Notes under the pieces: model-generated
The model's database searches: none
What the model was told of the DNA's origin: nothing
The model's input: the letters and a program-made list of their open reading frames with translations, nothing else
Translations under genes and position numbers: made by a program
Source of the DNA: a virus
DNA: 64,000 nucleotides
Virus record (IMG/VR): IMGVR_UViG_3300045995_000345
Location: 9,025 to 73,024 of that record
Direction: 5' to 3' (one strand)
In this document: positions 1,217 through 62,701 of the stretch, piece by piece
Layout of the letters: the number at the start of each line of letters is the position of its first letter
Position numbering within the stretch: position 1 is the stretch's first letter

Positions 1217-1897
1217 ATGAGTTCGAGATACGAGAAGAACTGCCCCATCTGCGGCAAGATCTTCGTAGTCGCACAAAATCTCTGCGCCTGTTCGCGTGAT
1301 TGCCGAAGACAGATGAACCAACGGTGGGCGAAGGCCAAGCTAGAGAAGCGACGACTCGCCACTCAGTCTCGGCAATCGGGCAGCCCATCAATCCAGACTT
1401 CCAGACCGTGCAAGAACTGCGGCCGCGACCGCAGGAAGAACAAGATCTTCTGCTGCGTATCCTGCTATGAATCGTTCCAGAAGAGGCCAAAGACTACGCA
1501 GGAACTGGCGGAGATAAAGCTCGCGAAGTCGGAGAAGTTCAGGCGCAAGCGGCAGGCCCGTGGTCAACGCGAGTTTGAGCTGAACCCCACCCGGTTCACC
1601 TACTACCACCACGTCTATCTAAACTCCGATCGGTGGGGGGAACTTCGGAAGCTCAAACTCCAAGAGCGCGATTGCTGCGCCAATTGCAGCAGCCGGACGA
1701 AGTTGCACGTCCATCACTGGGATTACCACAACCTGACCGATGTCCTCCTGATTGATCTGGAAGTCGTTTGCGAGCTGTGCCACAACGAGATTCACCGCCG
1801 GATCGACCGCTTTCCCAAGTCGGAGTGGACCAGATTGAGAGACCTGTTCAGGGAACTCGGAATGGACGGGCTTCCCATCAATCCGAAGCACCATTAG
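1217..1897 (+). CDS. HNH endonuclease with N-terminal Zn-ribbon motifs
   Basis: CPICG..CSRDC and CKNCG..CCVSC motifs; C-terminal CANC..LHVHHWDY..LEVVCELCHNEIH; alternative GTG start at 1208. Confidence 0.8.
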   Translation: MSSRYEKNCPICGKIFVVAQNLCACSRDCRRQMNQRWAKAKLEKRRLATQSRQSGSPSIQTSRPCKNCGRDRRKNKIFCCVSCYESFQKRPKTTQELAEIKLAKSEKFRRKRQARGQREFELNPTRFTYYHHVYLNSDRWGELRKLKLQERDCCANCSSRTKLHVHHWDYHNLTDVLLIDLEVVCELCHNEIHRRIDRFPKSEWTRLRDLFRELGMDGLPINPKHH

Positions 1898-1901
1898 AAA
1901 C

Positions 1902-2690
1902 TCAGTTTCCATCCTTGGGCAAATCAATTACAGCCGGCGCCGGCAGGTGACTCCTTCCATTTCCATTCGCCACCGTCACATTTCCGTCAACACGCATGTT
2001 GACCATTGGCGACAGCGGCGAGAACTTCGGGCTCCGTTTATTCTGGATCGCTTCCTTCTGCTCCGCGCGCCGCAACTCAATCATGGCTGCCGCGATTCCA
2101 GCCTGCCGGATCTTGTCGTAGGTATCGAGCATGAGGCCGTAGAGCGTGGCCCTGTCCTGCCTGAGCATCCTCAGCCTGACCAGCCTTTGGTCAAGGTTCT
2201 CTCCGGTCAGTGGATCCAAGGGTGCGGTATCGAGCAAGGCGATCCTCTCCGTTGTTGCCTTGGCTTCAGTCTGGAAACTCAGGTAGAGGGACAGGAGGCC
2301 ACCGCCAGTCATGGCGCCGATCTGCTTGAAGTGTTTGGCGAACAGGTCGGCTTGATTGATGGCGGTCTTGGCTACGTCTTCGGGAATTCCGATGGAGGTA
2401 AGAGCTTCTGCCGTCATGCAGACATTCTCCAAACGCTTCATTGAGGATTCAACGTCGCGAGCTAATGACGCTCCCGGATCTCTCGCATCCACCGCCGATG
2501 CTTTCTCAGCTCTGAGTTGATCGAAGACGGCCTTTAGCTTTGCGTTGTCCATGATCCGCAAGCGTAGCTTCTCCGGATTCCTTCCGAGCAATCTAGCCGC
2601 CCCCGCTATGGATCCAGACTGAAGCAAAGCCTCCCTTATCTGTAATTGCGTGGTTACTCTAGGAGCTTGCTCTGGTGTGGCGGTGTTCAT
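1902..2690 (-). CDS. Fis-type HTH/coiled-coil protein (regulator or displaced terminase small subunit)
   Basis: IREALLQSGSIAGAARLLGRNPEKLRLRI resembles an HTH; ATGA-coupled to the giant gene. Confidence 0.6.
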   Translation of the reverse strand: MNTATPEQAPRVTTQLQIREALLQSGSIAGAARLLGRNPEKLRLRIMDNAKLKAVFDQLRAEKASAVDARDPGASLARDVESSMKRLENVCMTAEALTSIGIPEDVAKTAINQADLFAKHFKQIGAMTGGGLLSLYLSFQTEAKATTERIALLDTAPLDPLTGENLDQRLVRLRMLRQDRATLYGLMLDTYDKIRQAGIAAAMIELRRAEQKEAIQNKRSPKFSPLSPMVNMRVDGNVTVANGNGRSHLPAPAVIDLPKDGN

Positions 2691-5600
2691 CTCCCAAACC
2701 CCGCAGCGATTGAACGGTAATCCCTTGCCCCACCACCGCCACCGGACATGGAGCTGGATCCGTAGATGTTCACGGCCCTGCGTTCTGTGCCGAAGAACGG
2801 GGTGAGCCCTCCCGTGTTGGCTCGGCTCTTTCGCACCTGCGCTCCGTAGGCGTTGAAGTTGCGGATGGCTGCCGACACTTCGGTTGCGCTGTCACCCAGA
2901 GAAGCCAGCATCTTCTGGTACTCGCCAGCGCTGGGGGACTTGTTGAACGTGGAGCGGAGAGGATTCATGCGCTCGTAAGCTTCAGCCACGTCTGCGTAGG
3001 GATCAACCTCCGGGTCAGTTACAGCCTTCAGGCTGGCGACTTCAAGGGCCTTGGAGTACGCCTCGCGGAATGCGGCCGGGTCGTTGACGTAGGCAGCCAG
3101 GACCATGTTTCCCACCCAAGGTTTCACCGGGTTGGGTATGGCGTTGATCATGCCGGCGGCTGAACCCCGGAAGATTCTCAGGTCAAGTCCCTGTTCCCTG
3201 CCGGCCACACGGATCAGGTTGCCCACGTTGATGCGTTCAACAATGCGGCGCTCGGTGTTGTCGAGGTCCAGCATGTTGTTGATCGCATCAAAGTTCTGGA
3301 GGTAACCAGTTCCACCAGCAGCCTGAATGAACTGGCGCCAGGTTGAAGCGTAGGTGGAATTCGACGGGCCTTGACGCGCCAGCTTGGTGAGCACAGCGCC
3401 AAGGTTCATGATGGTGGAGGCGACGAACACCCGGCTGTCCACGCTGAACTCTCGGGCAGTGGACACGTTGAAGATGGAGTTGACGGGTTCGCTGATGATT
3501 CCGAACGTGCCAAGGCGGGAGAACGAATCAAGCAGGGCGAGGGGCAGGTTCTCATCCAGCTTGAACGGAAGCTGGTTGGGCGCCTTGCCAACGATGTCCT
3601 TCTCGTACTCCTTGCGCATCACGGCGTAGGCGATGGTCACTGGAACGATGGCCAGGGTGAATGCTGTGGCGGCGGAAGCGGCTGCCCTCAAGGATGCTCT
3701 ACCCTCCGGCTCTCGCGAACTCTTCACCACGTCGGCGGTCTTGATCAGAGCCCAGCCAGTCAGGGGTGAGACAATGCGGCCGAAGGTATTGTTGAGCGTC
3801 CAAGGCGCACGCGTGGTGATGCCCGTGTTGAGCAGCACCTCGGTGTTCGCCAGCGCAATGACGGATCGAATCTGATCGAAGGTCAAAGGCTCCGCTCCAG
3901 AAAGTCGCTTTCTAGCAGCGTCCTCCAGTTGGATTCCGTTCTTCTCCAGCGTGGTGTAGAAGTACTTGAACGCCCGATCGTCCAGCATCAGCCCGCTCAG
4001 GTTCTTGCGCGAGAAGTTCGCCGTCTTGGCGCTGAACTTGAAGTTGGGATCCGCTGCATCTGCCGGGTGGTATTGGAAATAAAGGGCTGCCTTGTTGATC
4101 CCGTCGTTCGTGAACTCAAGCCACGTCCGAGCTGCGGCGCGCTGCATGATGATGTTGTTCATGGAGAACGGTGCCCACCACTTGAGGGTAGCGGCTGCCG
4201 TCTCAACGTTCTTCGGCTTGCCAACCCCAGTGCTCAGGAACACACGCGCTGCCGCGTTGACCCGCTTCGTTACGGCGCGCACCACTTCACCGGGCACCCT
4301 CAGCGGGGATGCCGTGCTTCTCCACGCCACAGCCCAGAGGGACGCCTCCGCTCCAAGCTGCTGCCGATAGCGGTCCAGCATACTTCTCCACCCACGGCGT
4401 TCGGTGAGCGAGTCAAGGTCCGCCGCCCCACCGCTGTTCAATAGGCGAGTGTTCTTGGCGTTCTCCGCGTTCATCCGCATCTCCCAGCTCATCGCCTGCC
4501 ACATGCTGTGCATCAACTCGAATGCGTAGTTCTTGTAGTACCCACCGAACAGGACGGACACCGCTTCCTTGCTGAACCCGAACTTCCGGAACGCATGGTC
4601 AGGCAGTGAGATGTGATCGGACACGGCGGAGGTGACGCCCTGCAGTACGAACCCGCTCATAACGCCAACCATGTCCATCAACGTCTGGTAACTCTGACCT
4701 CCGCCGCTGTGGGTGCGAATGAGTGAGAAGAGAACGTCCTCGTTCTTTTGGGCGTACTCGAGATTGTAAACGGCATTCTCGCGCATCTTCCTCAGTCCAG
4801 GCCGATCTCCATTCAGCCCGTTCTCCATGTAATCTTTCGACAGCGCTGGGTTGCTGGTCTTGATCGCCTCTGCCGCCTTGAAGTCATCCGCCAGCAGCGT
4901 CAGTTCAGTCTGGAGTTTCGCCAGGTTGGCCTTCAGGTCTGTGGCTCCAGCTCCGTAGGCATCCTGCTCTGCCAGGACGCGGATGTAGTTCGCGTAATCC
5001 TTGTGTCCGTAGGTTCGGAAGTTCAACCATCCAGGAGGGAAGTCCTCTCCCTTGCGCGCATCCAGGAAGGCGCGCCCAATCGTTCTCAAGTCGTTGCCCT
5101 GATCTCCTTCGTCCACCTTGGCGACCTTGTAGAGTTCGTCCATGTAATGTTGGAACGTGGCCATGGTCTGGCCTACGAAATCCGAGAGTGTATCGGGACT
5201 TCCACCAAGGTCAGCGTGCAGCGTCTCGGCAAACTTCAGGGCATCGAAGGTGCCATCGGCGCGACCAGCCGTGGCTGCTTGGTAGGCTCCCCTCAACTGC
5301 GCGTGCGGGGCCATGTCCACAACTCCGCCAACCTCCGGGCCTTTGAAGTTCGTTTGACCGGGCTTGGAAATCAGTTCGGCAACGAACGTCGTGTTGACTG
5401 GAGCGGTGAACCTCGCGTCCAGCACGGCCTGCAACGCTGCCCGATCCTTGGAGTGCAGCAATGCGACGGCGCTCTTGGTGAGGCCGACGTGTTCGACGGG
5501 GGTGGGATTGCCAGCATCGTCTGTCTCGGCTCCCATCCATGGAGTATTCCAGAACAGCTTCTCACTTCCCTTCATCCGCATCGCGAGAGCCACGGCTGGC

Positions 5601-8600
5601 CCTGCGGTGTAACGGCTCATGGTGCTCATCACGCCACCGATGACATCGCGGAAGATGACGCGCCCTCCAACCATGACATCGCGGATCTTGAGCTTTATCC
5701 CGCGTCGGACGTTCTGAAGATCCATCGCCGCCGCGAAGTTGGCACGGATGTACTTGTCCACCGCTTCCCATGCGCCCTTTCGCTCCATGCCTGGGAGCGC
5801 CTGCACGAACCTCTTTCCGGTCGCCATGAACTGGTCGAGCTGCTGCTCCGGAGTCAGCCTTGGATCGTAGAGGTGCTGCTCGGATTGGAACAGGCCGAGG
5901 ATGTTGTGGTAGAAGTTGGCGTGAAACTCAACAGGGTTGTCGATGCCGGTGGCGATCATTGCGGCACGGGCAAGTTCGTCCACCTTGTAGTAGAGCCGCT
6001 CGTTGATCGAGTTGCGAAGCGACTGCTCCCGGTTGTTGTGCGTCACGATCTGCTGCTCGATGGCGCGCGCTGTCTGCGTTCCGTGTTGCCGGAACCGCGT
6101 CCCGATGTCGCCCATGGAACGGAGGATCCAGCCGCCCAAGCCACGCTGAATATTCTCATTCGCGCTGTTCGCTTGACGCCCGGCAGCCTCTCTCACCACA
6201 CGTTCCAGAAAAGCGAATCTCCCTGATCCTTGAGATCCCGGGTGCTCCGCCATCCAGCTCACAATCTTCGTGAGATTCTGCTGAATATTCGCGTCGCTGT
6301 AGTTGTCGCCATGCTGAACCGTCTGGCGAAACTCAGGCTTCGTGAAAAGATCATCCTCAGTTGTCAGGTTGCTCTCGGGAACCAAGTAAACCGCGTTGTT
6401 CACCCACTTGAACTGCCGGCTTTGTTCTCCGAAGGTGCCTTCCTCCAGGTCGCGCATTCGTTCCAGCTTGCGAATCTCCTCAGCCTGAATCTTGGAAATG
6501 ATGTGCCACTCCACATCCCACTGCGAGAGTTGTGCCGCCTGCTTGAGCAGCTTCTCGTTCTCCGCCTTGATTGTGTCGAGGCGCTTTAGGATTCGGTCGG
6601 CGTGAACGAACAGGGTGCCCACGCGGGAGAGCTGGCCCACTGCAAGCGCCCGGGCATCCGGCTTGTTGCTGACCGCCAGTTTGATCATCTGGTTGATGGC
6701 GGTCTTCTGGACACCCTTGTCATCGTAGGCTGTCCGCACCGCCAGGAGATCCATCGCGATCGGCCGGCGTCGTGCGAACTGGAGAGCCAGGGCAAGGCGA
6801 GCTGGGTCGGCTGCGATGTTCCGAGCGTTCGGGTTGGCGCTGGCTGCCGCCGCTGCCTGCACGTCGCCTGGGGTCAGGGACACCTTGCCAGCGGATGTCA
6901 GTGAGACATTTCCCACGGTGGAGTAGTCGATGCCTAGCTCTGCTAGGGCTTGAAGCTGGTCGCCAAAGGCAATCTTGTTTCCCTCAATCGCTCCAGCCGC
7001 GATCCTCAGCGCTTCCTTGAAGCCAGTCTTAATGCCCAAGGCTTCAAGGATGGATTGCGCCCCGGTGCCAGTGGCCTCGCGCAAGGCGTCCTTCATGGAC
7101 TTCAGGAACTGGCCGGTCACCACGTCGAGGTTCTGGTAGTTCTGGGTCAGCTCGTAAAGCTCCAGGTTCGATTCGCTGATGCGCTCGGTGAGCTTGCCTT
7201 CGCCGAACTCATGATCGGAGAGTGCCTTGCGCGCCTGCCACCGGGTCCGGTCCTTGTAGTGAATCTCCAGGGCTGCCATCTGCGCCTTGGGCGCTTCGTT
7301 GGTCTGCTCCAGGTCTGCGAACGTGAGGCTGGTAGAAACTGGCTTTCCAGTGGTGCCGTCTTTGGTGAGCGCGCTGTTGATTGCGGCCTTGATGTCCTCG
7401 GCTGGATCTTCCCCGCCTTGAATAAGTGAGGCGAACGAGTTCTGAATCCACTCGGCCTCCGTGGCAACCGGCTTCCCTGTGGTGGTGACGTTGTTCCCGC
7501 TCTTAACGAGGGCGTCGAAGTACTTGGAACGTGCGGCGGCAACCTCATTCGTGACCGCCATCATTCGCTTGGCCTCGTTCTCGTACTCTCGCGTTGGGCT
7601 GATCTCTGTGCGTTCCCCGGCGAGGCCCTTGATCTGGCGGTAGCGCATCTCATCCGCATTCATCGGCCCCGTGTTGGGTCGCAAGACGCGCCACGCCTTG
7701 TCCCTCGCCGCCGCCGCTTCGTCGTAGTTCTGGAGCAACGTGGTGACCAGCTTGTAGGCTTCGTCCGCAACGTTCTTGTCGCTGGTCAGGCCAACTGCCT
7801 TGAGCAGGTTCGCCACCAGGCGCTTGAACGCATCCCACAAGGACAACGATGTCGGGTCACCGAAGTTCGGAGGCAGCGCAATCTTGGTGAGCTTGTCTCG
7901 AAACTCCGGGTCTGACAGCACGGCAACGGCGAACTCATCCGATCCAACCAGACCTTCCGCTGACTGCTGCCACGTCAGGCCCGCTGCCTTTGCGGCTTCA
8001 ACCAGTGTGTGCAATTTTTGCACGAACTCCTGTTCGCCAACTGTCAGCGATGCCGGGTTGTTCCTCGCACGCAAGAGCAGTCGCGAGATGAAAGGATGCA
8101 GCGCCTCGTGAACAACTGAGACATGGAAGTCCTCCACGTTCCGAGCGTTGGCTGGGAACACGGTGGCTTCATTGTTGGCCACGCTGTAAGATCCACCAAG
8201 CGGAGTCCCGACTTGAGTCTCTGGAGAGATTGTCAGCTTTGCCTCAGTGACATCCGCTCTTCCGGCAAGGAACTTGGCTAAGGCAGCCAGTTCCCCACCC
8301 GCCTCCGCCACCTTCTCCAAGGCAGCCGCCAGCGTCGGGTAATCCTTCTTCAACGCGGCGATGTTCATCTCGCTCAGCAACCCGTGCTGAGTGGCTGGCA
8401 GCTTGCTCTTGGCCAGTCGTTTGAGATTGAAGATGACGTTCTCCACGGAGTCGGGAAGAAGCTCCGGCGCCGTGATCGTCTGCGCATCCAGGTCAACGGC
8501 GTCCATCGCGTCTGGATCCAACTGGCGTTCGCGGGATGGCGTGACGGCTTCTTGAGCCACGTCCAGGGCGGTCTCGATTCCGTGCGGAGTCCTCGCCTTC

Positions 8601-11600
8601 GTGATCATGTCGAGGATCTGATCCCTCTGACCATCACTCAACCCGCCGTCTTCGTGCAGACTCAAGATGACGCCAACCGCCTCCGCCTTCAGCGGCACAA
8701 GGGCGCGCATCTTCTCCGACATCGCGTCTAGAGTTGCTACGGAGGTGGGGCTTGGTTCAAGTCTTGCACTTGTTCCGGTCTCACTTGGGGCTTGCGCGGG
8801 TTGCGCTGCTGCCGGCGGCGTGCCTTGGCCAACGCCTGCGACAATCCCACCATCAGCAGCATTATCCCGTTGCGAATTTCCGGTCGCGCCTTCTGCAATG
8901 GCGGAGGAACTTCCAGCATTTGTGTTCTCATTGGAAAGAGCCTTTCTAACTCCATTCCAGTTCGTGATGATGGTTGGCAGTGTTTCATCCAACATTCGCT
9001 GGATCATTGCCCGGTCTTCGATGGAGTCGTAGGAGGCCGCAACGCTTGCCTGAAGTTCTTTCGCGAACTGCTGAATCAACTCGGGCGACGTAACGACGTG
9101 GTCCTTTTGAAACGCCACGATCTGCGCCACCATCGGCATGTTGTTCTTCACCCAATCAGCAAACCTGAGTTGCTCCTTCCGGTTCAACGCCTGCTCTGGT
9201 GTGAAGTTCCTCGCGTTGACGATGTCTCCGGACGCCGTCCTCACGTTGTCGGTTGAGTATCCGTAGGCGTCATCCCTTGCCTGCTTCAGTCCACCGAACT
9301 CGCCCTCGTAATCAGCCACGCTGCGGATGGCTCGCGCAAGCTGGTTGCGTGGCGACCGCAAGAGCATGGACGAATACGGCACGAACCCAGCCTCCAGCAA
9401 ATCAATCACCCCAACTGTGTCCTTGGCCCCATCACCAATGGCGAATCGGAATTGCAGGTTGGCAATGACTTTGTTCGCGCGGAGCTTCTTGCTCACCGCG
9501 TTCACGTCGCCCTTGGTCTTCTTCAGCGCCTTTCCGAGTTCCGTCAGCGTGACTGTCTTGGGTGAAGACTTCAACGCCTTGGCCGCTTCCTTTTTCGTAA
9601 TACCGAAACCCGCCGCCGCCTCTTCCAGCGTGTAGGTGATCGCCCTGTTGCGGTTGTAGGCCAGCGAAAGAATGACGCGGCCGGCCGGGGTGATCCAACC
9701 AGCAACCCGTCGGCTCAACGAAGAGGACTGCTTGCCCACCGCAACCTGCTTGCCCTTCTCACTTCTCTTGGCTGTGCCCACCTGGGACTGGGCAGTGAGC
9801 AACGTGCCGATCAGCTTCGCGGCGTATTCCTTCTCGCCCTGAGTCTTGGCTTCGTTGTAGAGCTTGTGAGCTTCAGACAGATCGTGACCGCCACCAGTGT
9901 CGTCCTTCGTGTCGTAGTAACCCGGGAGCTTGGCGATCTTGCGAGCGGCCTCTTCGCTGTCCAAAGTAGCCTGCGCATCAGAGGATTCGTCAGGCGTCAT
10001 TCCTGGCTCGTCACCAGACGTCGGATCTTCCACGCGGCCGAATGCGTTTTCGACTGCGGTGGATCCAGAATCATCAACGAGCGAATCACCATGCCCGCGT
10101 TGAGACGGATCTTCCGAAGGCTTGGCTGCATCCAGAGAACCATACTCGAACTCCACCGCTGCCGGCCCGATGGCTTGAACGATGGATTGCTCCTCCGCTT
10201 TGAAGTTGGCAATGGCACGCTCCAGCTTTGAGATGCTCAGGATCAGATCAGCGTGTCGGTCAACGAGCGCCTCGGCGTCCTTGTCAGCCTTCTTCAGCTC
10301 GGCAATGAGCGATTCGACCTGCTTGAGTTCAGCCTGCTGGGCAGCCAAGTCGGTCTTGAGATACTCCAGGTTCTTCTTGCCATCGTAGTTCTCTCCGAGC
10401 GCATCGACCTTGGCAACGACGTTGGCGGCGAAACCGAGAGCTTCAGGCTTCAGTGCTTCTTCGACTTTGCGTACTTCTTTGCCCACGACGGGAGCTTGTC
10501 CTTTGACTTCACCTTGGACGGGAGCTTGCTGAACGACGGTGTTTCCTTGGCCCACCGCTTGGCCCACGGTTGGTGCGTTGAGAATGCGAACTTCTGTTGC
10601 GAGGTGCTGAGGAATGGGGGCATTGGATTCCTTGGTTGGTGCTGACTGGCTGCGCGCTTGGATCTTGGCAGCCATCTCGGCGGGCCTGGGTTGGCGAGAC
10701 TGACTGAGCCGCTGAATGCGTGCGGCCATATCCGCTGGGCGCGGAGCCTGCGTCTTGAAGTACGTCTTGAGCGCGGCAACTGCGGCCTTGGGAGTTTCGG
10801 GAGGAGAAGCCTGTTGAGCCTCCGATGGAGGCGGTGCTTCCTTGGTAGCGAGCGCTGCGGGTGCAGCCGGCACAACAGGTGAAGGCGATTGGGCAACCTC
10901 AGCGTTGCGCGTCACGGTCGGGTCACGCATGGCTTCAGCGTAAACCATCAGGTGCGCTTCAACGGGCGTGCCAGCCGGGATCATCTGCGTGTCCACGGGA
11001 ACGAACGTAGCGCCAGCCTTGACGAACAGTTCGAGCTTGTTGCCCCCGTCCTTCTGCGGCGTCACCACGGAACGGAACAGCACCTTGCCCGTGTCATCCT
11101 TGGCTTCGAGGATGCGTGGTGTCAGCGGAACTCCCAGCTTGCGCGATTCGGCCCACGTCAACTGTTGGTTCACGTTGCGCTGCTTCACCACATCAGGAAT
11201 CGAGGCTTCTGTCTTGGGATCATATCGAAGCCCCAGCTTGGCAGCCATCTGTTGCAGGTCGGCGCGCGTGAGCGTGTCCTTATTTAGCAGTTCGGCTACA
11301 TCGCGAACCTCCGGGCTTCTCTGGTCTTCGGGAACGGACTGAACCAGATCCTTCGCGAACTGGTAGAGCGGCACCTTGGAGACGGCGGGGCGTTCAGCTT
11401 CAGCCGTAGCCGAAACCCCACCCGCACCAGTTTCGCTGGGAACGCTGGCTGGTGCGGGCGTTGATGTCTCGGTAACCGGAGGTGCTACTTGCAACTCTTG
11501 GGTCCCTTGACCTTGGGCATTTGCTTCTTCGCCATTGGGAGTCTCACCGCCTTTCTCGTTGGAAAGTGACTTTCCAAGTTCGTCGCTTCTGGCTTGAAGG

Positions 11601-13090: not shown

Positions 13091-14803
13091 TTACTCGTAG
13101 GGACTCGGCTGCTGCGCCCGAAGAATGCTGAGAAGATCCGACACGTTCTGAATCGGAGCTTGATACTGTGCAGGAAGGGAAGTCTGGCCTGGATAGAGTT
13201 GCCTTAAAAGATCCGCTGCCTTCAAGATGTCGCCTTGCTGAGTGGCCTCTTGCGCACGCTGCTGGATGATCTCTTGGAAGGTGGCGGGGATCATACGCGA
13301 GGGCTCCGAGAAAGATGCGCCTGCTCCATGGAACATGGGAACGACTTGACGGACCATGCCTTGAGGATTCACAATCCCCACCGGAGCCGCTGCTGCTTGA
13401 AGATTGGAGATGGCCCGCGCCGTTGCGCCCGGCATGATGTCGGCCGGAGGAAGGCTGGCGTAATTTGGCATCACCTGCTGGACGGCTGGCATGGCTGCCT
13501 GGGGAATTCCGGCTGTGCCCATCAGACTCAACTCTTGCGGAGAGAGTGGCGGAGCGTTTATGCCACCGGGAGGTGGGGGTTGAGTTCCGTCTGGAGGAAG
13601 GGTCAGAATTCCATTGCCACCAGCGCCACCTGATTGCCGGCCACCGAATCCGGTAGCAGGATTCCGAACCCTTCCGGCCCCCCAAATGGGCGTCGTGCCA
13701 TTCCGTTCGTTGAGAGCCTGATTCACCAGCTTGTCTTCAGAAGTCATGCGCTTAAGAGCCAGCCCAACTTGCATTCCATACTTTTCATCCAGTGAGTTCA
13801 GAAAGTTGATTCGATCCGTAGTATCGTTCTGCTGACCGCGTGCGACGTTGGTCAAATCTCTGAGGTAGGCGTTGGCATCCGTTCTCTGATTTATCGCCTG
13901 ATCCATGGCCCCAGCCTTAGCGAGCATGTCGCTCTGCTCGAAGATGATCTGTTGGAGTCTGGCCTTGGTGGCTGGATCCAGCTTGTCAACGGCAGCGATC
14001 ACAGAACCGGGCATACCAGAAGTCAACCCCGTCCGAACGATGGACTGCTGGTTGGGCTTGAGTGTAAGCAGCTCGGCTTGGAACTTTTCGTTGTTCAAGA
14101 GCAACTGACCGAGCGCTTTCTGGGTAACGGGAGTCATCCCCGGATGAGCTTGGGCGTCTGGAATAACTGCCCTCGCACGAGGCAAATTCCGGTCAAGCAG
14201 AAAGTTACCGTAGTCAGATTGCGCATTCTCCCAGATCGTCTTCCCATTCTCCGCCTTCACGGGATTATTCACAACCTCGTTGATCAAGTCCATGTCGTGC
14301 TGGGTACGGAGCGCGGCCTCTTGCTTTGACTCCGAGATGGCGATTTGCTTGGCCAGTTCAGCATGAGAAACCGGTACCCCATCAGGCCACATCGTTGTCA
14401 CGCCCATCATCTCCGCTTTGTTCTGGAGCTTTCCGACCTCAAGCGCGAGGTTGTCCTTGATCGCTCCGGCCAGCTTGAGGCCGGACATTGCAGCCGCCTT
14501 CTGGGGAGTTGTCAGGTTTGGGTCTGTCCCTCCAGCGGCAGCGTAATCACGATCGATCTGTTTTGAGTACGTCTCCTCCGCGTCCGCCTTGGTCTCAGTC
14601 CTGAGTTGCTGGTGCTGCCCCTCCTGATAGCGCCGGGCGTCCTCCGTCACCTTCTGGTTGTAATTGCGCTGGGACTCAACGATGGCGTTCTGGTAGGCGC
14701 GCGTGATGGCCTGGTCGTTGAGCGCAATCCGGCCACGCTGAAGCGTTTCAAGCGGCTGCGTCGCCGCCTGCATTCCAGTCCGAAGAACTTCGTAAGGGTC
14801 CAT
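13091..14803 (-). CDS. putative DNA ejection protein
   Basis: 570 aa, Q/A-rich coiled coil; synteny. Confidence 0.6.
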   Translation of the reverse strand: MDPYEVLRTGMQAATQPLETLQRGRIALNDQAITRAYQNAIVESQRNYNQKVTEDARRYQEGQHQQLRTETKADAEETYSKQIDRDYAAAGGTDPNLTTPQKAAAMSGLKLAGAIKDNLALEVGKLQNKAEMMGVTTMWPDGVPVSHAELAKQIAISESKQEAALRTQHDMDLINEVVNNPVKAENGKTIWENAQSDYGNFLLDRNLPRARAVIPDAQAHPGMTPVTQKALGQLLLNNEKFQAELLTLKPNQQSIVRTGLTSGMPGSVIAAVDKLDPATKARLQQIIFEQSDMLAKAGAMDQAINQRTDANAYLRDLTNVARGQQNDTTDRINFLNSLDEKYGMQVGLALKRMTSEDKLVNQALNERNGTTPIWGAGRVRNPATGFGGRQSGGAGGNGILTLPPDGTQPPPPGGINAPPLSPQELSLMGTAGIPQAAMPAVQQVMPNYASLPPADIMPGATARAISNLQAAAAPVGIVNPQGMVRQVVPMFHGAGASFSEPSRMIPATFQEIIQQRAQEATQQGDILKAADLLRQLYPGQTSLPAQYQAPIQNVSDLLSILRAQQPSPYE

Positions 14804-14817
14804 AGAAACTCACTTTC

Positions 14818-15828: not shown

Positions 15829-16287
15829 TCAAATCACTTTCTCGTAAAGTCTCTCTTTAAGGGAGTAGCCTGATCGTTCGTACCACTTCGCCATACGTTC
15901 CGCAACATCGTTCTCAAGGTGGACCATCCAGATCCGCTTGGCGCCATGCACTTTCGCCTCATCTTCGTAGGCTTTCAACAGGAGGTGGGCCTTGCCCCTC
16001 GCCTCCGGGTGAGCGTAGAAGAATGTCTCGCACGCAATGACGTCTCCCGTGTGATCGCACTTGGCAACCACGGCCCCGAACGCTGCGATGATCTTGGAAA
16101 GCGAGTTTCCAGGATCTTCGTCCAGCACTAGGATGAACCGGATGCCTCCAGCAATCCCGGCGGTCATGGCTTCAATGAAATGCCCGGGATTCCAGACGCC
16201 CTTCTGCTTCGATTCCTTGAAGAACAATTCCCCCAGCTCCAGGAGTCTGGGAACTTCGTGAAGGTGCAGGAGTCTTGGTGTCATCAT
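15829..16287 (-). CDS. GNAT-family acetyltransferase
   Basis: FFYAHPEARG motif A and ..KWYERSGY motif B; typical position before ejection proteins. Confidence 0.8.
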   Translation of the reverse strand: MMTPRLLHLHEVPRLLELGELFFKESKQKGVWNPGHFIEAMTAGIAGGIRFILVLDEDPGNSLSKIIAAFGAVVAKCDHTGDVIACETFFYAHPEARGKAHLLLKAYEDEAKVHGAKRIWMVHLENDVAERMAKWYERSGYSLKERLYEKVI

Positions 16288-51518: not shown

Positions 51519-51797
51519 ATGTTCAAAGTCACCATCGAAGCAGTAGGAGAAACAAGAGACATAGCAATCGCTCAGGCTATCTCCTGCGCGTCCGGGCTGA
51601 TTGGCCACCCCAATATGGGCATCTATTCGGTGGGGTCCACAGTGAGAGGATCCACAGCCTCGGTCAGTCCAGTGGAAGCTCGAGAACAGAAGCCTCTGGA
51701 TGTCGGGATGGCGCGCGTGGATCGATTCGCGAAACTGGCGGTTCAGCCAACGAAGCCCGAACGCTACTCCCCGCTACGGAGAAATCCTCCAGCTTAA
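51519..51797 (+). CDS. hypothetical protein
   Basis: ATG at 51519, just after the upstream stop. Confidence 0.45.
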   Translation: MFKVTIEAVGETRDIAIAQAISCASGLIGHPNMGIYSVGSTVRGSTASVSPVEAREQKPLDVGMARVDRFAKLAVQPTKPERYSPLRRNPPA

Positions 51798-52137
51798 AAA
51801 CCCGCTTTCTAATCTCCCACTTCATGGCCTTCCCTCCGCGCTTCACCTTGAGCTTCCTCCAGCCCCACAGTTCAAGGTGAGCGCCAGGAGTCTTCAGCCA
51901 GTCCACGCAGTCCTTTGCCTTCTCGCCAAGCATAGCAAGTTCGTGTTCCCGGAACGCCTGTCCCGTTGACTGAATGCCGATCACGCCACGGGAATGATCG
52001 AGGGCAAGTATATCGATGCACCCGAACAGGTCTTGACGAATTCCGTGCGGACCCACGAAGCGGTTGAACTTCTCCACGATCCCCGCGCGGTGCCCCTGCT
52101 TCCTGATCTCCGCTAGCGTTCTCTGGGTTGGGCTCAT
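51664..52137 (-). CDS. PD-(D/E)XK nuclease (resolvase-like)
   Basis: SPTQRTL..G....VEK...DLFG.IDILA...IGIQ.T pattern. Confidence 0.7.
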   Translation of the reverse strand: MSPTQRTLAEIRKQGHRAGIVEKFNRFVGPHGIRQDLFGCIDILALDHSRGVIGIQSTGQAFREHELAMLGEKAKDCVDWLKTPGAHLELWGWRKLKVKRGGKAMKWEIRKRVFKLEDFSVAGSSVRASLAEPPVSRIDPRAPSRHPEASVLELPLD

Positions 52138-52379: not shown

Positions 52380-53449
52380 TGGGAGTTGGGTTTCAGAGGC
52401 TGTCTGAGCTGCCCAGTGAGTCGTTTTATTTCGGTCGCCAGATCTCCGTTCTGCTGAACCAGCTCACCCTCCCTCTGGTTGAGTCGTTCTATCTCCAGCC
52501 TGAGTTCGTCTATCTGATTCAGGAGTTCTGTTCTGGACTGCTCCAGTTCCTGTTCCCTATGGAACGGGATATACACCACGCTCTGCGCATCGGTGCCCGC
52601 CTGAACCAACCGCGTGAAGTCGCCGCACGCGATAGCTTGCTTGAAAGCTTCGATCGTCTGTTCCCTCGTAACACCCTCGATGGCGACAAGCTTTTCGTCG
52701 ATCATCTTCTTGATGGCTTCGTCTGCCTTCGCCCTGTAAGCAGCGAACCCGTAGTTCCCGTCCGCGCATTCAGCAGCAGTCCTCGGCATGGGACCAGGAG
52801 TAATCTGAGTTGCGCTCTTCCCAGCCGGCATACCATCCGCGAACGATTTCGGCGTGGGGAACGTGAACGCGCCTTTCTCCTTGAGCATTTTTTCAAGCGC
52901 GGCCTCATAGGCATCGGATGTATATCTCGACCCCCGCTCCATCGGGGGGCCTGGAACTAATATCGGCAACCTGCTTCTCATCCCGATCAACTCCTCCAAG
53001 ATCCGCTCCAGCAATCCCAGCGACTTGTCACTCATGGCGAAGTGGCGCTCGTTGACCCTGTCAGCTTCCTTCGGCGGCGCCGTCTTGAACGCCTCCCGGT
53101 AGAGAACCTCTTCCCGAACGCGCTCCGCTGCCACCCACCATGCATTCAGAACTTCAGGAATCAAGCTCTCGAATTTCAGCCCAGGCAGACGAGTGTCCGC
53201 CTCCTCTCCGTGCGCCGCCCGGTAACCTGAGTTCCACCCCAGGTAAGCCACCTCCGCCAGGGACACCTTAGAAACTGAGTTTCCAGGCAGCGGCGGATCC
53301 CCAATCAAGGCGTCCAGACCACGCTGGGTTTCCTCACGCGAAAGCCCCACTTTCGGAACCTCTCCCGGGGCCATGGAAGTCATCCCGGGGATTCCCCCGG
53401 AAACGTTACCACCCGAAATCCCACCCAAACCGACAGTCTGATCGTTCAT
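52376..53449 (-). CDS. hypothetical protein
   Basis: 357 aa with a C-terminal coiled coil. Confidence 0.6.
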   Translation of the reverse strand: MNDQTVGLGGISGGNVSGGIPGMTSMAPGEVPKVGLSREETQRGLDALIGDPPLPGNSVSKVSLAEVAYLGWNSGYRAAHGEEADTRLPGLKFESLIPEVLNAWWVAAERVREEVLYREAFKTAPPKEADRVNERHFAMSDKSLGLLERILEELIGMRSRLPILVPGPPMERGSRYTSDAYEAALEKMLKEKGAFTFPTPKSFADGMPAGKSATQITPGPMPRTAAECADGNYGFAAYRAKADEAIKKMIDEKLVAIEGVTREQTIEAFKQAIACGDFTRLVQAGTDAQSVVYIPFHREQELEQSRTELLNQIDELRLEIERLNQREGELVQQNGDLATEIKRLTGQLRQPLKPNSQ

Positions 53450-55843: not shown

Positions 55844-56349
55844 ACAGATGCAGCCTGCACAGGGGCACGCTTGGCTGCCCACGATCCCAACGTTCTTTTT
55901 TCAGTGCTTGCACGCTCACACCCATAACCCAACTCACCGCGCCACGTCAACAACTTTGTTTATCGTAATCTTGAATAATCAGAAGTAATCCACCATAAGG
56001 CCAGGTACACTTTTGTAATGCCTTCAGATGCAGCTTCAGCTTCACCCTCAGACCCATCTCAGAACCCAATTCCCAGGAGCCAGAAAGTTTCGATGAGGGG
56101 TGTATTAATTACGCCGCGCCAGTTTGGCTTCCCACCCCTCCCCGCCATCCCTCGCCTTGGAACGTGTTAAACCCTTAGCACAAAGGGTTTACACAAGCGG
56201 CTCAAATGACGACCTAAAATATCGTCGTTTTGACCCCTCCTAGAAACTCACTTTCTAAGCGTGTTCTGCGTACTTGTGCGTCCATAACTCCTACGTAGAG
56301 ACAATTCCCCTGCAATTGCCGGTAGGGATTTGGAAACTTGGTTTCCAAG

Positions 56350-57056: not shown

Positions 57057-57130
57057 TTGGAAAGCTACTTTCCAAATCCTAAACCACAACATACTTCAGA
57101 GCGTGCTACCACGAAAGGCAAAGTACTATC

Positions 57131-57541
57131 ATGAGCGAATCAACTACTACCATCGCATTGGCGCAAGCCAAGGCTGCATTCATTCTGGCGATCACTGGTT
57201 TCACTGGTGCCATGGTGACGGTTCTGGATGCGATGAATTCGGCGATTGCGTTGGCCAAAAAGGCTGGCGGCGACCGGAAGACGGTGAAGAGTTGGGCGAA
57301 GGATTTCTCGGTGTCCCGCCAATGGATCAACAGGATTCTGTCCATGCCGGAGAACTTCGGGCCGGACGCGAAACCTCGCGGCAAGAAAACCGCGAACAGT
57401 ACGGCTACGGCCAAGTCTCTGTGCAAGCGGGCATTGAAGGCTTGCAAGAATGACGCGGTGAAGGCGGCGGAGCTTCTCATGCAAGCGGCGGAGATGTCGG
57501 AAGCGGTGGCGGCCGAAGAGGATTCGGAAGGCGGGGAGTAA
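57131..57541 (+). CDS. HTH-like DNA-binding protein (candidate palindrome binder)
   Basis: TVKSWAKDFSVSRQWINRILS resembles an HTH; flanked by palindromes at 57058 and 57595. Confidence 0.6.
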   Translation: MSESTTTIALAQAKAAFILAITGFTGAMVTVLDAMNSAIALAKKAGGDRKTVKSWAKDFSVSRQWINRILSMPENFGPDAKPRGKKTANSTATAKSLCKRALKACKNDAVKAAELLMQAAEMSEAVAAEEDSEGGE

Positions 57542-57661
57542 TCCGCTTCACGGTTCTCTGGCAAGGCGACCTTGCGTAGCAGGGGGCGAGGGTTTGGAAA
57601 GTAGTTTCCAAAGCTCGCCCCTTGAAGCGTGCGGTCAAACATCAACGGAAAGGATTAGGCA

Positions 57662-57838: not shown

Positions 57839-58078
57839 AGACCCCGCGGTTCCGCCCTTTGGATTTGGAAAGCGAGTTTCCAAAGGGCGGGCTCGTGCGG
57901 TCAAGAGGGGATCTTGCTTATTGCACAAGGCTGGATTAGCACGGCCGGGACATCGGCAGATGAGCTACCGGAGAACTACCACAACGAGAAGCGACCGTCT
58001 GCTGGCGGTCAAAGGGACGCTATGCGACCGGTGCAACGGAGCGGGCTGGCGTTCTGAGAGATGAAAGGGAAGGCTACC

Positions 58079-58431: not shown

Positions 58432-58687
58432 GGGTTGCGCGTCGCCATGCGAAGTGTGAGCGCGTGGCGAGGCGCGGCTGCCATGCCGCGATTGAAGGGA
58501 AGGTGAGCAATATGTGGCGATAACAGAACCAGCGTGATTACGCCCCGCCCTAAGCTGGAACGTGCGATTATGAGGCGCGCGAAAAGCCGGCTTAGGGTGG
58601 TGACGTGGCCACAACCACGGCTTTGACATTTGGAAACTGACTTTCCAAAGTCTCAAGGCTCAACTCAACCAAGAAAGACAGAATACC

Positions 58688-59158: not shown

Positions 59159-59197
59159 GGTTTGGAAACTCGCTTTCCAAAAAGACAAAACCACCAC

Positions 59198-59695: not shown

Positions 59696-59802
59696 TAGTT
59701 TGGAAAGTGACTTTCCAAGCCGCTTGAGCACGGCTGGCCTGAGTGTGACAGGCCCGCCTGCTCAGTCGGTCAAACCACAACCAAGAGAAAGGCAGGACAG
59801 AT

Positions 59803-60051: not shown

Positions 60052-60141
60052 AGTCGGACGCGGCTGCCCGGCTGAATCAGCAGGCGCAACTGGCTGCCGG
60101 CATGGCGGCGAAAAGAATCTGGAAAGTGAGTTTCCAAACCT

Positions 60142-60986: not shown

Positions 60987-61021
60987 ATGGAAACTCAGTT
61001 TCCAAAAACGAAAGGTAACCA

Positions 61022-62011: not shown

Positions 62012-62021
62012 AAGGAAAGAA

Positions 62022-62273
62022 ATGAGCAAAGACATCCGAATGTGGAAGTCTGAGAAGAAGCGGTTCGTTCACCTCGCCTGCCGATCAATGGCGCAAGACA
62101 TCTGCAAGCACATCGATGAGGGCCGAGTGCCGGACGAGTGGGATGGCCATGAACTGCGATGCCTTATTGCCCACCGAGCAGAGCAGTGGGCTGCACCAAC
62201 CAAGATCATGCGTAATCCGAAGTGCGAGAGGGCAAAGGAGTTTCACAATACCATCACCATCACCACACTGTGA
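62022..62273 (+). CDS. hypothetical protein
   Basis: VPDEWDGHELR motif; AAGGA upstream. Confidence 0.6.
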   Translation: MSKDIRMWKSEKKRFVHLACRSMAQDICKHIDEGRVPDEWDGHELRCLIAHRAEQWAAPTKIMRNPKCERAKEFHNTITITTL

Positions 62274-62485
62274 ACCCCTCGCAACTCAAGCCGGGCGACC
62301 GCATCAAGTGGAGCCCGCCGGAAGGAGAATCGGAGGGTGCCGACCCGCCAAGCGAGGGGATTGTCACCCGCAAGCACGGCAGCTTCGCCGTCGCCATCGT
62401 CTGGGATGACGGCGCAAGCTGCGCAATTCCAATCGACTCCACCGCTTGGTGGCAACAAGTCGAATCGGTAAGACCTACAGCGTAG
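62270..62485 (+). CDS. small SH3-like beta protein
   Basis: LKPGDRIKW..G.V...IVWDDG; GTGA overlap. Confidence 0.5.
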   Translation: MNPSQLKPGDRIKWSPPEGESEGADPPSEGIVTRKHGSFAVAIVWDDGASCAIPIDSTAWWQQVESVRPTA

Positions 62486-62701
62486 AGCAACACAACCTTG
62501 CCCATGCGTTTCCCCCGGCTCCCCTCCGTGTTCGTTGTGGTCCACGTCGAGGCGTTCAATTGGGTGCGACTGTCCGTGTGGTAGCGGACAGCTTCACCCA
62601 GCCGGGGCGCATGGGCCTTTCACTCAGAGACCACACCAGTTTGGAAAGTCAGTTTCCAATTTCCAGTTACCGCACAGCAAACCACAAACAGAAAGACCAC
62701 C

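What the first reader, a model, noticed from the sequence alone, without database searches (positions are those of the whole stretch)
1895..62658. Genome-wide 17-bp palindrome (at least 22 copies): a stoperator- or parS-like system
Seen in sequence: TRGAAA-N5-TTTCYA occurs exactly at 22 positions. Near-copies lie at 3898, 14803, 19752 and 51795 (one mismatch), 57595 (4-nt spacer) and 47816 (6-nt spacer). The spacer is itself nearly symmetric (SYNRS: CTCAG, GTGAC, GCGAG, CTGAC). A rough hand estimate at ~60% GC gives about 0.004 expected copies. Copies fall into three classes: (a) dense intergenic copies at many gene boundaries in the early region, 56.2-62.7 kb; (b) copies overlapping stop or start codons in the late region (1895, 14803, 24694, 37117); (c) copies inside coding sequence (giant protein x3, GNAT, FkbM, GT9, scaffold, RecT, the 357 aa ORF). 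TTGACA (58623) and TTGACC (56230) lie just upstream of two copies. Established knowledge: mycobacteriophage L5 stoperators are genome-wide repressor sites, but they are asymmetric. Inference: one dimeric protein coats the whole genome, for silencing, packaging/ejection or segregation.
Basis: partly seen in the sequence, partly recalled or inferred. Interest (0 to 1): 0.9.

Follow-up and report, generated by a model that had tools for sequence, protein, structure and literature searches.

The report
Phage-wide 17-bp palindrome, binder unknown
An uncultured river phage carries 25 copies of one 17-base palindrome, placed at gene ends and written in frame inside genes; it most likely marks docking sites for a two-part DNA-binding protein, and the same palindrome is a transposase-linked repeat in some tiny CPR bacteria.

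Summary
TRGAAA-N5-TTTCYA occurs 22 times in the window and 25 times in the 73,024-bp viral record, against 0 in shuffles.

New facts:
- All 10 internal in-gene copies share one codon phase.
- 8 of 25 copies lie within 25 nt of a stop codon, against 1.65 expected.
- Copies are written in place, not inserted as fixed-length units.
- The two halves share the same base preferences but do not pair with each other. This fits a duplex read by a symmetric dimer, not a hairpin.
- As RNA the hairpins are weak and lack U tails.
- I found no ParB and no Y1 transposase in the phage, and I identified no binder.
- Only one related fragment, G312, has the motif, at other positions.

The same palindrome is a repeat family in four Parcubacteria (CPR) genomes. 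In one of them it flanks a RAYT-like transposase gene and sits in frame inside GroEL, LepA and GatB.

Published precedent: Cluster O mycobacteriophages carry over 30 copies of a 7+3+7 palindrome of unknown function.

Verdict: real, non-random, and a new variant of a known but unexplained kind. Best reading: operator or roadblock sites, confidence 0.45.

The parts
1895..1911 (.). Exact copy TAGAAACTCAGTTTCCA. Its first three bases are the TAG stop of the + gene 1313-1897. It also overlaps the 3' end of the - gene 1902-2561, so it sits at a convergent junction.
3898..3914 (.). One-mismatch copy inside the 3466-aa ORF, in the same codon phase as the exact copies. It encodes ARKRLSG; relative G001 has ARKKLRG with no indel.
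7333..7349 (.). Exact copy inside the 3466-aa ORF (2687-13087, - strand), in the shared codon phase. It encodes TGKPVST. The region is 2 aa longer than in G001.
8932..8948 (.). Exact copy inside the 3466-aa ORF, same phase, encoding VRKALSN.
11560..11576 (.). Exact copy inside the 3466-aa ORF, same phase, encoding LGKSLSN.
14803..14819 (.). One-mismatch copy spanning the stop of gene 14818-15825 and the start codon of gene 13091-14803, both on the - strand.
16095..16111 (.). Exact copy inside ORF 15829-16227 (- strand), same phase, encoding PGNSLSK. The region is 5 aa longer than the G001 orthologue.
19752..19768 (.). One-mismatch copy inside the 805-aa virion protein gene, same phase.
22463..22479 (.). 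Exact copy inside ORF 22299-22919 (- strand), same phase.
24135..24151 (.). Exact copy inside ORF 23734-24681 (- strand), same phase.
24694..24710 (.). Exact copy whose last three bases are the stop codon (TAG on the - strand) of gene 24708-26351. It lies 12 nt before the next start codon.
31584..31600 (.). Exact copy inside ORF 31303-32652 (- strand), same phase. It encodes SGKSVSN where eight relatives have SGKDTSK-like peptides with no indel.
37117..37133 (.). Exact copy whose first three bases are the TAG stop of the terminase gene 35545-37119 (+ strand). It sits at a convergent junction with gene 37242-37685 (- strand).
43690..43706 (.). Exact copy inside the RecT gene 42764-44113 (+ strand), same phase.
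45931..45947 (.). One-mismatch copy inside ORF 45604-46443 (+ strand), in a different phase.
47816..47833 (.). Variant with a 6-nt spacer, inside the DnaB-like helicase gene.
51795..51811 (.). One-mismatch copy 131 nt inside the 3' part of ORF 51664-52137 (- strand), near the third convergent junction (51513/51664).
53269..53285 (.). Exact copy inside the 357-aa ORF 52376-53449 (- strand), same phase.
56241..56257 (.). Exact copy in the 1.1-kb non-coding divergent region. TTGACC lies 5 nt upstream.
56331..56347 (.). Exact copy in the same non-coding region.
57058..57074 (.). Exact copy 56 nt upstream of the first early gene (57131).
57595..57610 (.). Variant with a 4-nt spacer, embedded in a longer GC-rich inverted repeat, 54 nt after the stop of gene 57131-57541.
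57866..57882 (.). Exact intergenic copy with GC-rich extended arms.
58631..58647 (.). Exact copy 40 nt upstream of gene 58688. TTGACA ends 2 nt before it.
59163..59179 (.). Exact copy 4 nt after the stop of gene 58688-59158 and 18 nt before the next start codon.
59701..59717 (.). Exact copy 5 nt after the stop of gene 59198-59695.
60120..60136 (.). Exact copy 5 nt before the ATG of gene 60142-60423.
60988..61004 (.). Exact copy 1 nt after the stop of gene 60756-60986 and 17 nt before gene 61022.
62642..62658 (.). Exact copy 43 nt upstream of the MoxR-like AAA+ ATPase gene, which starts at 62702.
21640..22224 (-). The only Pfam-recognisable sequence-specific DNA-binding candidate among the phage proteins I scanned. 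It has an HTH_3 domain plus sigma-70 region 4, and its model resembles sigma factors. Among its homologues, the start of the HTH recognition helix (residues 33-38) is hypervariable. Binding to the palindrome is not shown.
57131..57541 (+). Orphan 136-aa first early gene with an HTH-like segment, bracketed by copies at 57058 and 57595/57866. It is a candidate binder by position only.

Best explanation
The palindrome t-TRGAAAS-T-S-A-STTTCYA-a is a selected double-stranded DNA site. It is read by a symmetric, probably homodimeric, sequence-specific protein that I could not identify and that may be phage- or host-encoded.

Placement (shown): sites are packed between the early genes. They sit on or just after stop codons, including two of the three convergent gene junctions. 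They are also sprinkled through long late genes in the one codon phase that encodes a harmless G/R-K/N-x-L/V-S peptide.

Mechanism (inferred): occupied sites act as bidirectional protein roadblocks or insulators to transcription, working like operators and stoperators. They would keep the genome, and above all the early region, silent or partitioned. A prophage state is a plausible setting, because the phage encodes a tyrosine integrase.

Shown: non-randomness, placement, symmetry without pairing, and in-place origin. Inferred: that a protein binds, and what binding does.
For: - Enrichment. There are 25 copies against 0 in shuffles. 0.004 copies are expected in coding sequence, and 10 internal copies are seen.
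- Symmetry without pairing. Position 8 prefers T/C and position 10 prefers A/G. Positions 7 and 11 are C or G in 49 of 50 cases. Yet pairs 7/11 and 8/10 are complementary in only 12 of 25 copies each, and pair 2/16 in 19 of 25. The centre-to-centre distance of the half-sites is 11 bp.
- Not RNA terminators. Mean folding energy is -6.2 kcal/mol against -3.5 for random 25-mers. Some copies fold at only -2 to -3. Tails are not U-rich.
- Placement. 8 of 25 centres lie within 25 nt of a stop codon, against 1.65 expected; 0 of 5000 random draws reached 8. Ten copies lie in 6.5 kb of the early region, all between genes. Exact copies overlap the stop codons at two of three convergent junctions, and a near-copy lies 131 nt from the third.
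- Selection on the DNA. All 10 internal copies share one codon phase, P about 2e-4 under the codon model. Sites arose in place on pre-adapted peptides: 31584 and 3898 show no indel against relatives.
- A tyrosine integrase is present.
- Precedent. Cluster O mycobacteriophages carry 34 copies of a 7+3+7 palindrome, intergenic and intragenic. Their authors also suspected a dimeric regulator (section 8 read).
Against: - No binder found. Gene 57131 has no homologues and an uninformative Atlas model. Gene 21640 looks like a sigma region 3/4 fragment, and sigma region 4 binds DNA as a monomer (my recalled knowledge, no call). Seven of nine other phages carrying that gene show no repeated palindrome in the 10-20 kb I fetched.
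- No promoter-like elements accompany the sites. Sigma-70-like promoters are not enriched in the early region: 4 found against 2.6 expected.
- Roadblocks inside late genes would harm lytic expression unless the binder is absent at that time.
- Lysogeny is not shown.
- Sites are not positionally conserved between this phage and its only motif-bearing relative, G312.
- An identical palindrome is a transposase-associated repeat in CPR bacteria. So a non-regulatory origin is possible.
Confidence: 0.45

Rival explanations
1. The copies are REP-like palindromes of the kind tied to RAYT (Y1/HUH) transposases. A host-encoded enzyme acting in trans seeded or maintains them in the phage. They may be selfish, or secondarily used as gene-end elements.
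For: - The same core, extended to a 23-bp perfect palindrome, is a multi-copy family in four Parcubacteria MAGs. Counts are 15, 9, 12 and 12 copies, against 0-2 for the reversed control.
- In G006 three copies bracket and enter a 221-aa RAYT-like gene with a HUH motif. Y1_Tnp scores 21-22 bits, just under the 23-bit cut-off.
- Of nine other Y1_Tnp genes examined in these genomes, seven are flanked on both sides, and two on one side, by their own distinct perfect palindrome. Those families have 6-15 copies each in the 501,570 bases of G006 I fetched.
- CPR copies behave like the phage copies. They lie on or just after stop codons. They also lie in frame inside genes without changing length: GroEL shows LGNSVSK against IAETTSD with no gap, and LepA is 2 aa longer.
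- The phage sites turn over quickly. The motif occurs in only 1 (G312) of the related phage records and fragments I examined: 7 whole records, 4 short contigs held whole, and 12 further MCP-relative loci seen only as fetched stretches. It sits there at non-orthologous junctions.
Against: - A six-frame search found no Y1_Tnp in the phage, with 0 candidates.
- Phage copies break stem pairing at positions 7/11 in 13 of 25 copies, and at 2/16 in 6 of 25. They still keep C or G at 7/11, which neither a hairpin-dependent mechanism nor neutral decay predicts.
- The phage has no inverted doublets, although these are common in CPR.
- Phage density is 1 per 2.9 kb, against roughly 1 per 40-90 kb in CPR.
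- The host is unlikely to be one of these CPR genomes. GC is 58% against 44-48%. Phage ribosome-binding sites are GAAAG(G), whereas G006 upstream regions are AT-rich.
- No high-GC multi-copy contigs appeared among the 110 metagenome hits.
- By my rough estimate the sequence match could be coincidence with a chance near 0.1. This is an inference, not a computed result.
Confidence: 0.25
2. The sites act as RNA hairpins in the transcripts. They would serve as 3'-end stabilisers, processing sites, factor-dependent terminators, or translation-coupling elements at gene ends.
For: - Copies lie 0-10 nt after stop codons in many cases.
- Every copy can fold.
- Two early copies have GC-rich extended stems.
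- The left arm resembles the phage's own GAAAG(G) ribosome-binding motif.
Against: - Of five asymmetric copies with an unambiguous sense strand, three give an A.C mismatch on the mRNA strand and two give G.U. I read this from the sequences.
- Pairing at positions 7/11 is at chance, 12 of 25.
- Stems are weak and lack U tails.
- Ten copies lie inside coding sequence, where cleavage or termination would be harmful.
- Symmetric base preferences in the 'loop' are not expected for a hairpin read by a protein.
Confidence: 0.1
3. The sites serve another DNA transaction. Options are short homology linkers for module exchange by the phage's RecT/exonuclease pair, or sites for replication, nicking or compaction.
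For: - Early genes are individually bracketed by copies.
- The phage encodes RecT and a PD-(D/E)XK nuclease.
- In Cluster O phages, recombination between the repeats has produced insertions and deletions.
- Spacing in the late region is mildly regular: CV 0.56, P 0.04.
Against: - Overall spacing is not regular, P 0.38.
- Nothing ties any enzyme in the phage to the site.
- The codon-phase lock and stop-codon overlap are not explained.
Confidence: 0.1

Closest known systems
17-bp dyad repeats of Cluster O mycobacteriophages (Corndog and relatives; PMC4351075, abstract and section 8 read)
   Same: - Total length is 17 bp in a 7+3+7 layout.
- There are about 30 copies in a genome of about 70 kb. 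Corndog has 34 copies; the 72,658-bp genome size is that of the Cluster O phage Ryadel (abstract in the listing).
- Arms are invariant and the centre is variable.
- Copies are a mix of intergenic (14) and intragenic (about 20).
- Intergenic copies concentrate in one non-structural region.
- The repeat is absent from related phages outside the group.
- The function is unknown, and the authors suspected a dimeric regulator.
   Different: - The sequence is different, TGTTCGGNNNCCGAACA.
- Cluster O sites are mostly positionally conserved among the five genomes. Here, the one motif-bearing relative has them elsewhere.
- In the parts of the paper I read, no codon-phase lock, no stop-codon overlap and no counterpart in bacterial genomes are reported.
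Stoperators of Cluster A mycobacteriophages (L5 type; abstract of PMC9283540 seen in the listing)
   Same: Many repressor sites are spread across a temperate phage genome. They stop transcription elongation as well as initiation. This is what I think the sites work like.
   Different: Stoperators are asymmetric and read by a monomeric two-domain repressor (abstract). Their single orientation relative to transcription is my recollection, not taken from a call. The sites here are symmetric. No homologous repressor has been identified.
REP elements with RAYT (Y1/HUH) transposases, here the palindrome families of Parcubacteria MAGs
   Same: - The core sequence is identical.
- It is a perfect palindrome with a 1-3-nt centre.
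- Copies lie at gene ends.
- In the CPR genomes the transposase gene is flanked by its own repeat.
   Different: - The phage has no RAYT.
- Pairing is not maintained in the phage copies.
- Classical REPs are extragenic by definition (recalled). Both the CPR and the phage copies also sit in frame inside genes.
ParB/parS-type and KorB-type dispersed palindromic sites on plasmids and plasmid-prophages (recalled, not checked in a paper here)
   Same: Short palindromes are bound by a dimer and scattered over a replicon, some of them inside genes.
   Different: No ParB N-terminal domain is present in the phage. No partition ATPase was recognised among the roughly 70 proteins I scanned.
Conserved inverted repeats bound by the phiC31 repressor (recalled; my search found no paper on them in the library)
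   Same: As I recall, a temperate phage with well over a dozen 17-bp inverted-repeat operators, mostly in the early region.
   Different: Not verified here. As I recall, those sites lie near promoters rather than on stop codons or inside late genes.

Membership tests
Cluster O-type genome-wide dyad repeats of phages | A short palindrome (7-bp arms, 3-bp centre) present in tens of copies throughout one phage genome | tested here: met
   There are 25 copies in 73 kb. Arms are TRGAAAS with a 3-nt centre. Compared with section 8 of PMC4351075.
Cluster O-type genome-wide dyad repeats of phages | Copies both between and inside genes, with intergenic ones concentrated in a non-structural region | tested here: met
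   12 copies are intergenic, 3 lie on stop codons and 10 are internal. Ten of the intergenic copies lie in the 6.5-kb early region.
Cluster O-type genome-wide dyad repeats of phages | Sites at the same positions in related genomes | tested here: not met
   The two G312 copies lie at junctions that carry no copy in this phage. The 31584 site is absent from the G312 orthologue. Only one 13.4-kb relative was available.
L5-type stoperators | Asymmetric site read by a monomeric immunity repressor | tested here: not met
   The site here is dyad-symmetric. The defining feature is taken from the abstract of PMC9283540.
L5-type stoperators | Bound by the phage immunity repressor, and blocks transcription elongation | not testable with these tools
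   No repressor was identified, and no RNA run holds the phage.
ParB/parS partition or KorB-like system | A ParB-family protein encoded on the replicon | tested here: not met
   PF02195 gave 0 matches at E<=1 in a six-frame search of the record. The same search registered in 11 of 14 control genomes.
REP/RAYT | A Y1 (IS200-like) transposase gene flanked by the repeat | tested here: not met
   In the phage, PF01797 gave 0 candidates. The feature is met in CPR genome G006: copies lie 34 nt upstream of, inside, and over the stop of a HUH-motif gene.
REP/RAYT | Repeat able to form a hairpin whose stem is maintained | tested here: inconclusive
   The outer six pairs were fixed by the search pattern. 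Pair 2/16 is kept in 19 of 25 copies. Pair 7/11 is kept in 12 of 25, which is chance.
REP/RAYT | High copy number in the host chromosome | not testable with these tools
   The host is unknown. The metagenome scan with the phage-type 19-mer gave no high-GC multi-copy contig.
Intrinsic (Rho-independent) terminators | GC-rich stem followed by a U tract | tested here: not met
   Stems have 2-3 G-C pairs. Mean folding energy is -6.2 kcal/mol. Tails are not T-rich on either strand. Terminator-like sites are not enriched in the early region: 6 found against 8.8 expected.

The most novel reading that the evidence does not exclude
The phage and certain CPR (Parcubacteria) bacteria share one palindrome system. 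A RAYT-type enzyme, or a protein that reads the same duplex, drives short perfect palindromes to overwrite DNA in place, in frame, even inside GroEL, LepA and a phage's virion genes. The phage would then be the first known virus whose genome is colonised by such a system or exploits it. The motif would also be a direct marker linking it to its host lineage.
Probability: 0.2. Interest if true: 0.8.

Novelty: new variant of a known kind. Interest (0 to 1): 0.6.

Why it matters
Genome-wide short palindromes in phages have been on record since at least 2015 (Cluster O), and the paper I read gives no function for them. This second, unrelated case adds constraints that make the question testable:
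- The sites are selected at the DNA level.
- They are symmetric without pairing.
- They are tied to stop codons and convergent junctions.
- They are locked to one codon phase.
- They turn over quickly between relatives.

A third case turned up in passing: G313, with 18 copies of another palindrome. The phenomenon may therefore be common in uncultured phages.

The identity with a transposase-flanked repeat in CPR bacteria raises a further possibility. Such palindromes could be written into essential genes without changing their length. I know of no mechanism for that.

Tried and rejected
- N4-like hairpin promoters for a virion RNA polymerase. This was my first idea, from the 3466-aa protein. 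That protein has no Pfam, PHROG or PDB-sequence hit, and the copies are not limited to one genome end. Dropped.
- Sigma-54 or LacI-type operators, and other host regulator sites. I considered these from memory only. Spacing or key bases do not fit. Not tested.
- Integrase core site. The integrase is 53% identical in G001, which has no copy. Rejected.
- Sequencing-linker artefact. Spacers vary, frames stay open, and independent assemblies carry the motif. Rejected.
- Binder by homology. Gene 57131 found only itself. The Atlas gave no usable lead.
- Complex prediction for a homodimer of the 57131 protein. The result was no verdict, with scores 0.08 and 0.11 against a mark of 0.32. This is no evidence either way.
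- Binder by co-occurrence. Phage proteins against the CPR genome G006 gave only DnaB, a PolX-like protein, DUF5672 and an AAA ATPase.
- The Xre/sigma-like gene 21640. It occurs in nine otherwise unrelated viral contigs. One (G313) has its own genome-wide palindrome, one has a local triplet, and seven have nothing in the part I fetched.
- Expression data. No RNA holder is listed for the phage.
- Population variation. I laid contigs of four riverine runs on 44001-64000. Strains are near-identical. None of the 40 listed differences (of 64) falls in a copy, but only about 0.6 would be expected, so the test has no power.
- Rfam. No family reached its gathering score in the window.
- Isolate phages. 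There was no DNA or capsid-protein match.
- Host. There is only one weak lead. A homologue of gene 21640 is named from a Verrucomicrobiota MAG.
- Chance class among metagenome hits. About 30 of the 110 hits are one conserved coding sequence, probably a membrane permease by my reading of its translation (no domain search), that happens to spell the 19-mer.
- Supplements of papers were not opened.

Full report
**What the window is.** It is bases 9025-73024 of a 73,024-bp IMG/VR virus record rated 93% complete. The record is circularly permuted. A MoxR-type AAA_5 ATPase gene runs off its end, and the matching CbbQ_C domain opens its start.

The phage is very distant from anything named:
- It has no DNA or capsid-protein match among 50,697 isolate phage records.
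- The 3466-aa protein has no Pfam, PHROG or PDB-sequence hit.

Recognisable genes are:
- a terminase;
- RecT, a PD-(D/E)XK nuclease, DnaB and DUF1376;
- a PolX-like protein, and an HTH_3 plus sigma-70 region 4 protein;
- a VWA protein and a tyrosine integrase.

Contigs of runs labelled riverine metagenome hold the stretch. This covers four studies besides the possible source sample.

**The observation.** TRGAAANNNNNTTTCYA matches 22 times in the window, with 0 in 100 shuffles. It matches 25 times in the record, with 0 for the reversed control. A codon-usage model predicts 0.004 copies in all coding sequence.

**Anatomy.** Aligned copies give t-T-R-G-A-A-A-S-T-S-A-S-T-T-T-C-Y-A-a. The two halves have mirror-image preferences:
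- Position 8 is T or C, and position 10 is A or G.
- Positions 7 and 11 are C or G in 49 of 50 cases.
- Within a copy, pairs 7/11 and 8/10 are complementary only 12 times in 25. Pair 2/16 is complementary 19 times in 25.

C or G in either orientation, with A/T excluded, is not what base pairing would give. It is also not what neutral decay from a perfect palindrome would give. It is what a symmetric protein reading a duplex would give.

As RNA the copies fold weakly, mean -6.2 kcal/mol against -3.5 for random 25-mers, and have no U-rich tails. Sigma-70-like promoters and terminator-like sites are not enriched in the early region.

**Placement.** I used my own gene calls.
- 12 copies are intergenic, although only about 8% of the genome is non-coding.
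- 3 copies overlap a stop codon.
- 10 copies are internal to genes.
- Ten intergenic copies lie between the genes of the 6.5-kb early region, mostly 1-10 nt after the upstream stop.
- 8 of 25 centres lie within 25 nt of a stop codon, against 1.65 by chance; 0 of 5000 random draws reached 8.
- Two of the three convergent gene junctions carry an exact copy on the stop codon, using the TAG half-site variant. The third has a near-copy 131 nt away.
- All 10 internal copies share one codon phase, T|GGA|AAS|NNN|STT|TCC|A, encoding G/R-K/N-x-L/V-S. The codon model gives that phase a share of 0.43, so P is about 2e-4.
- Spacing is not regular overall (P 0.38) and only mildly regular in the late region (P 0.04).

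**Origin of the in-gene copies.** Site 31584 encodes SGKSVSN where eight relatives have SGKDTSK-like peptides of the same length. Near-copy 3898 encodes ARKRLSG against ARKKLRG. Two other sites coincide with 2-aa and 5-aa length differences. So the sites are written onto tolerant, pre-adapted positions. They are not inserted as units of fixed length.

**Relatives.** Searches with the terminase and the capsid-like protein gave 11 and 23 loci.
- G001, at 73,327 bp, shares 19 proteins with this phage. It has no copy, no near-copy and no other repeated palindrome.
- Only G312 has the motif. It is a 13,411-bp fragment with 63-69% protein identity. It carries two exact copies, both at gene junctions that carry no copy in this phage.
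- The extended 19-mer occurs in only 2 other IMG/VR stretches.

**The unexpected link.** A metagenome scan with the 19-mer gave 110 stretches.
- About 30 are one conserved coding sequence, probably a membrane permease by my reading of its translation (no domain search), that spells the motif by chance.
- Thirty-one hits share longer flanks, making a 23-bp perfect palindrome. Several contigs carry many copies.
- These contigs share no proteins with the phage.
- There the motif lies inside LepA, GatB, a class I tRNA synthetase, GroEL, MiaA and TatD.

The 23-mer occurs in species genomes only in four Parcubacteria MAGs. They hold 15, 9, 12 and 12 copies of the 17-bp core. Of 301 genomes sampled across that phylum, only G006 has more than one copy.

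In GroEL the motif-encoded LGNSVSK replaces IAETTSD with no gap. In LepA the local loop is 2 aa longer. Where a long open frame spans a CPR copy, 9 copies use the phage's phase, 6 use a second phase, and none uses the third. Adjacent copies are always inverted pairs.

In G006 three copies bracket and enter a 221-aa gene with a HUH motif. It gives a weak Y1_Tnp match of 21-22 bits against a 23-bit cut-off. Nine further Y1_Tnp genes in these genomes are each flanked by their own different perfect palindrome, seven on both sides and two on one side. Those families have 6-15 copies in G006. So in CPR bacteria this palindrome is a REP-like family with its own RAYT-like gene.

**How far this explains the phage.**
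- The phage has no Y1_Tnp and no ParB.
- Its GC is 58%, against 44-48% for G006.
- Its ribosome-binding motif is GAAAG(G) in 19 of 82 genes, while G006 upstream regions are AT-rich. These MAGs are therefore unlikely hosts.
- No high-GC multi-copy contig appeared in the metagenome scan.
- By my rough estimate, the chance that one of many REP families matches a 9-nt arm is near 0.1. That figure is an inference.

I therefore keep the REP reading as the main rival at 0.25, not as the best explanation.

**Candidate binders.**
- Gene 57131 is an orphan.
- Gene 21640 has at least 60 homologues at 40-59% identity. One is named from a Verrucomicrobiota MAG.
- Its AlphaFold model has mean pLDDT 81.9. 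It matches sigma factors, and its C-terminal domain matches sigma-A region 4 at 34-38% identity.
- Across 34 homologues the scaffold is conserved, but residues 33-38, at the start of the HTH recognition helix, are hypervariable.
- Nine otherwise unrelated viral contigs carry this gene. One of them, G313, has 18 copies of a different palindrome, TTTAGYC-N-GRCTAAA, about one per 2.8 kb. Seven show nothing in the part I fetched.

This is suggestive only.

**Comparison with the literature.** Cluster O mycobacteriophages carry 34 copies of a 7+3+7 palindrome, intergenic and intragenic. It is absent from their host. Its authors thought a dimeric regulator likely but a transcriptional role unclear (PMC4351075, abstract and section 8). 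Stoperators are numerous repressor sites that stop elongation, but they are asymmetric and read by a monomer (abstract of PMC9283540). No paper in the library holds the 15-mers or 17-mers of this motif.

**Verdict.** The feature is real and strongly selected. It works most like a set of operator or roadblock sites for a symmetric DNA-binding protein (confidence 0.45). It is not a member of the stoperator or parS families. It is a new variant of the still-unexplained Cluster O kind. It also has an unexplained twin among transposase-linked palindromes of CPR bacteria.

Noticed in passing
G006 (Ca. Zambryskibacteria MAG) C4:43077-43782, C5:100913, C5:237171; loci L290-L297, L330: Parcubacteria genomes hold several RAYT-like (Y1_Tnp) paralogues. 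Each is flanked by its own perfect palindrome family of 6-15 copies. Copies also sit in frame, without length change, inside essential genes such as GroEL, GatB and the tRNA synthetase (LepA is 2 aa longer). Most RAYT genes themselves contain one copy.
   Followed up: partly
G313 = record of L301 (50,124 bp viral contig): This contig has 18 copies of a different palindrome, TTTAGYC-N-GRCTAAA, about one per 2.8 kb. In the part I read they lie 2-4 nt upstream of start codons. The asymmetric variant flips strand between the two genome halves. The contig shares only the Xre/sigma-like gene with this phage.
   Followed up: partly
window 21640-22224 (-): This 194-aa protein combines HTH_3 and sigma-70 region 4, and its model matches sigma factors. 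The family has at least 60 members in phages and bacteria. Residues 33-38 form a hypervariable patch in an otherwise conserved N-terminal domain.
   Followed up: partly
window, upstream of start codons genome-wide: Genes mostly lack a canonical Shine-Dalgarno sequence; GGAG occurs upstream of 7 of 64 genes. Instead GAAAG(G) lies about 8-16 nt upstream, in 19 of 82 genes. Several early leaders share an AAACCACAA stretch.
   Followed up: partly
window 62702-64000 and genome 29-2841: A MoxR-type AAA+ ATPase gene is split by the contig ends, showing the record is circularly permuted. A 782-aa VWA-domain protein follows it.
   Followed up: partly
window 55989-57130: A 1.1-kb stretch between divergent gene blocks has no credible ORF and holds three palindrome copies. 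No Rfam family reaches threshold anywhere in the window.
   Followed up: partly
genome 7776-8858 (just left of the window): A tyrosine integrase with a SAM-like N-terminal domain, 53% identical to one in relative G001. It suggests a temperate lifestyle or dimer resolution.
   Followed up: no
window 2687-13087 (-): A 3466-aa ORF with no Pfam, PHROG or PDB-sequence match. Only its C-terminal 1,900 residues align to G001, at 35% identity.
   Followed up: partly
loci L186, L192, L220 and about 27 others: A conserved 260-aa gene in many freshwater contigs, probably a membrane permease by my reading of its translation, spells the 19-mer in a third reading frame (FWKVSFQ). This shows that exact single matches to the motif do arise by chance in large collections.
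   Followed up: yes
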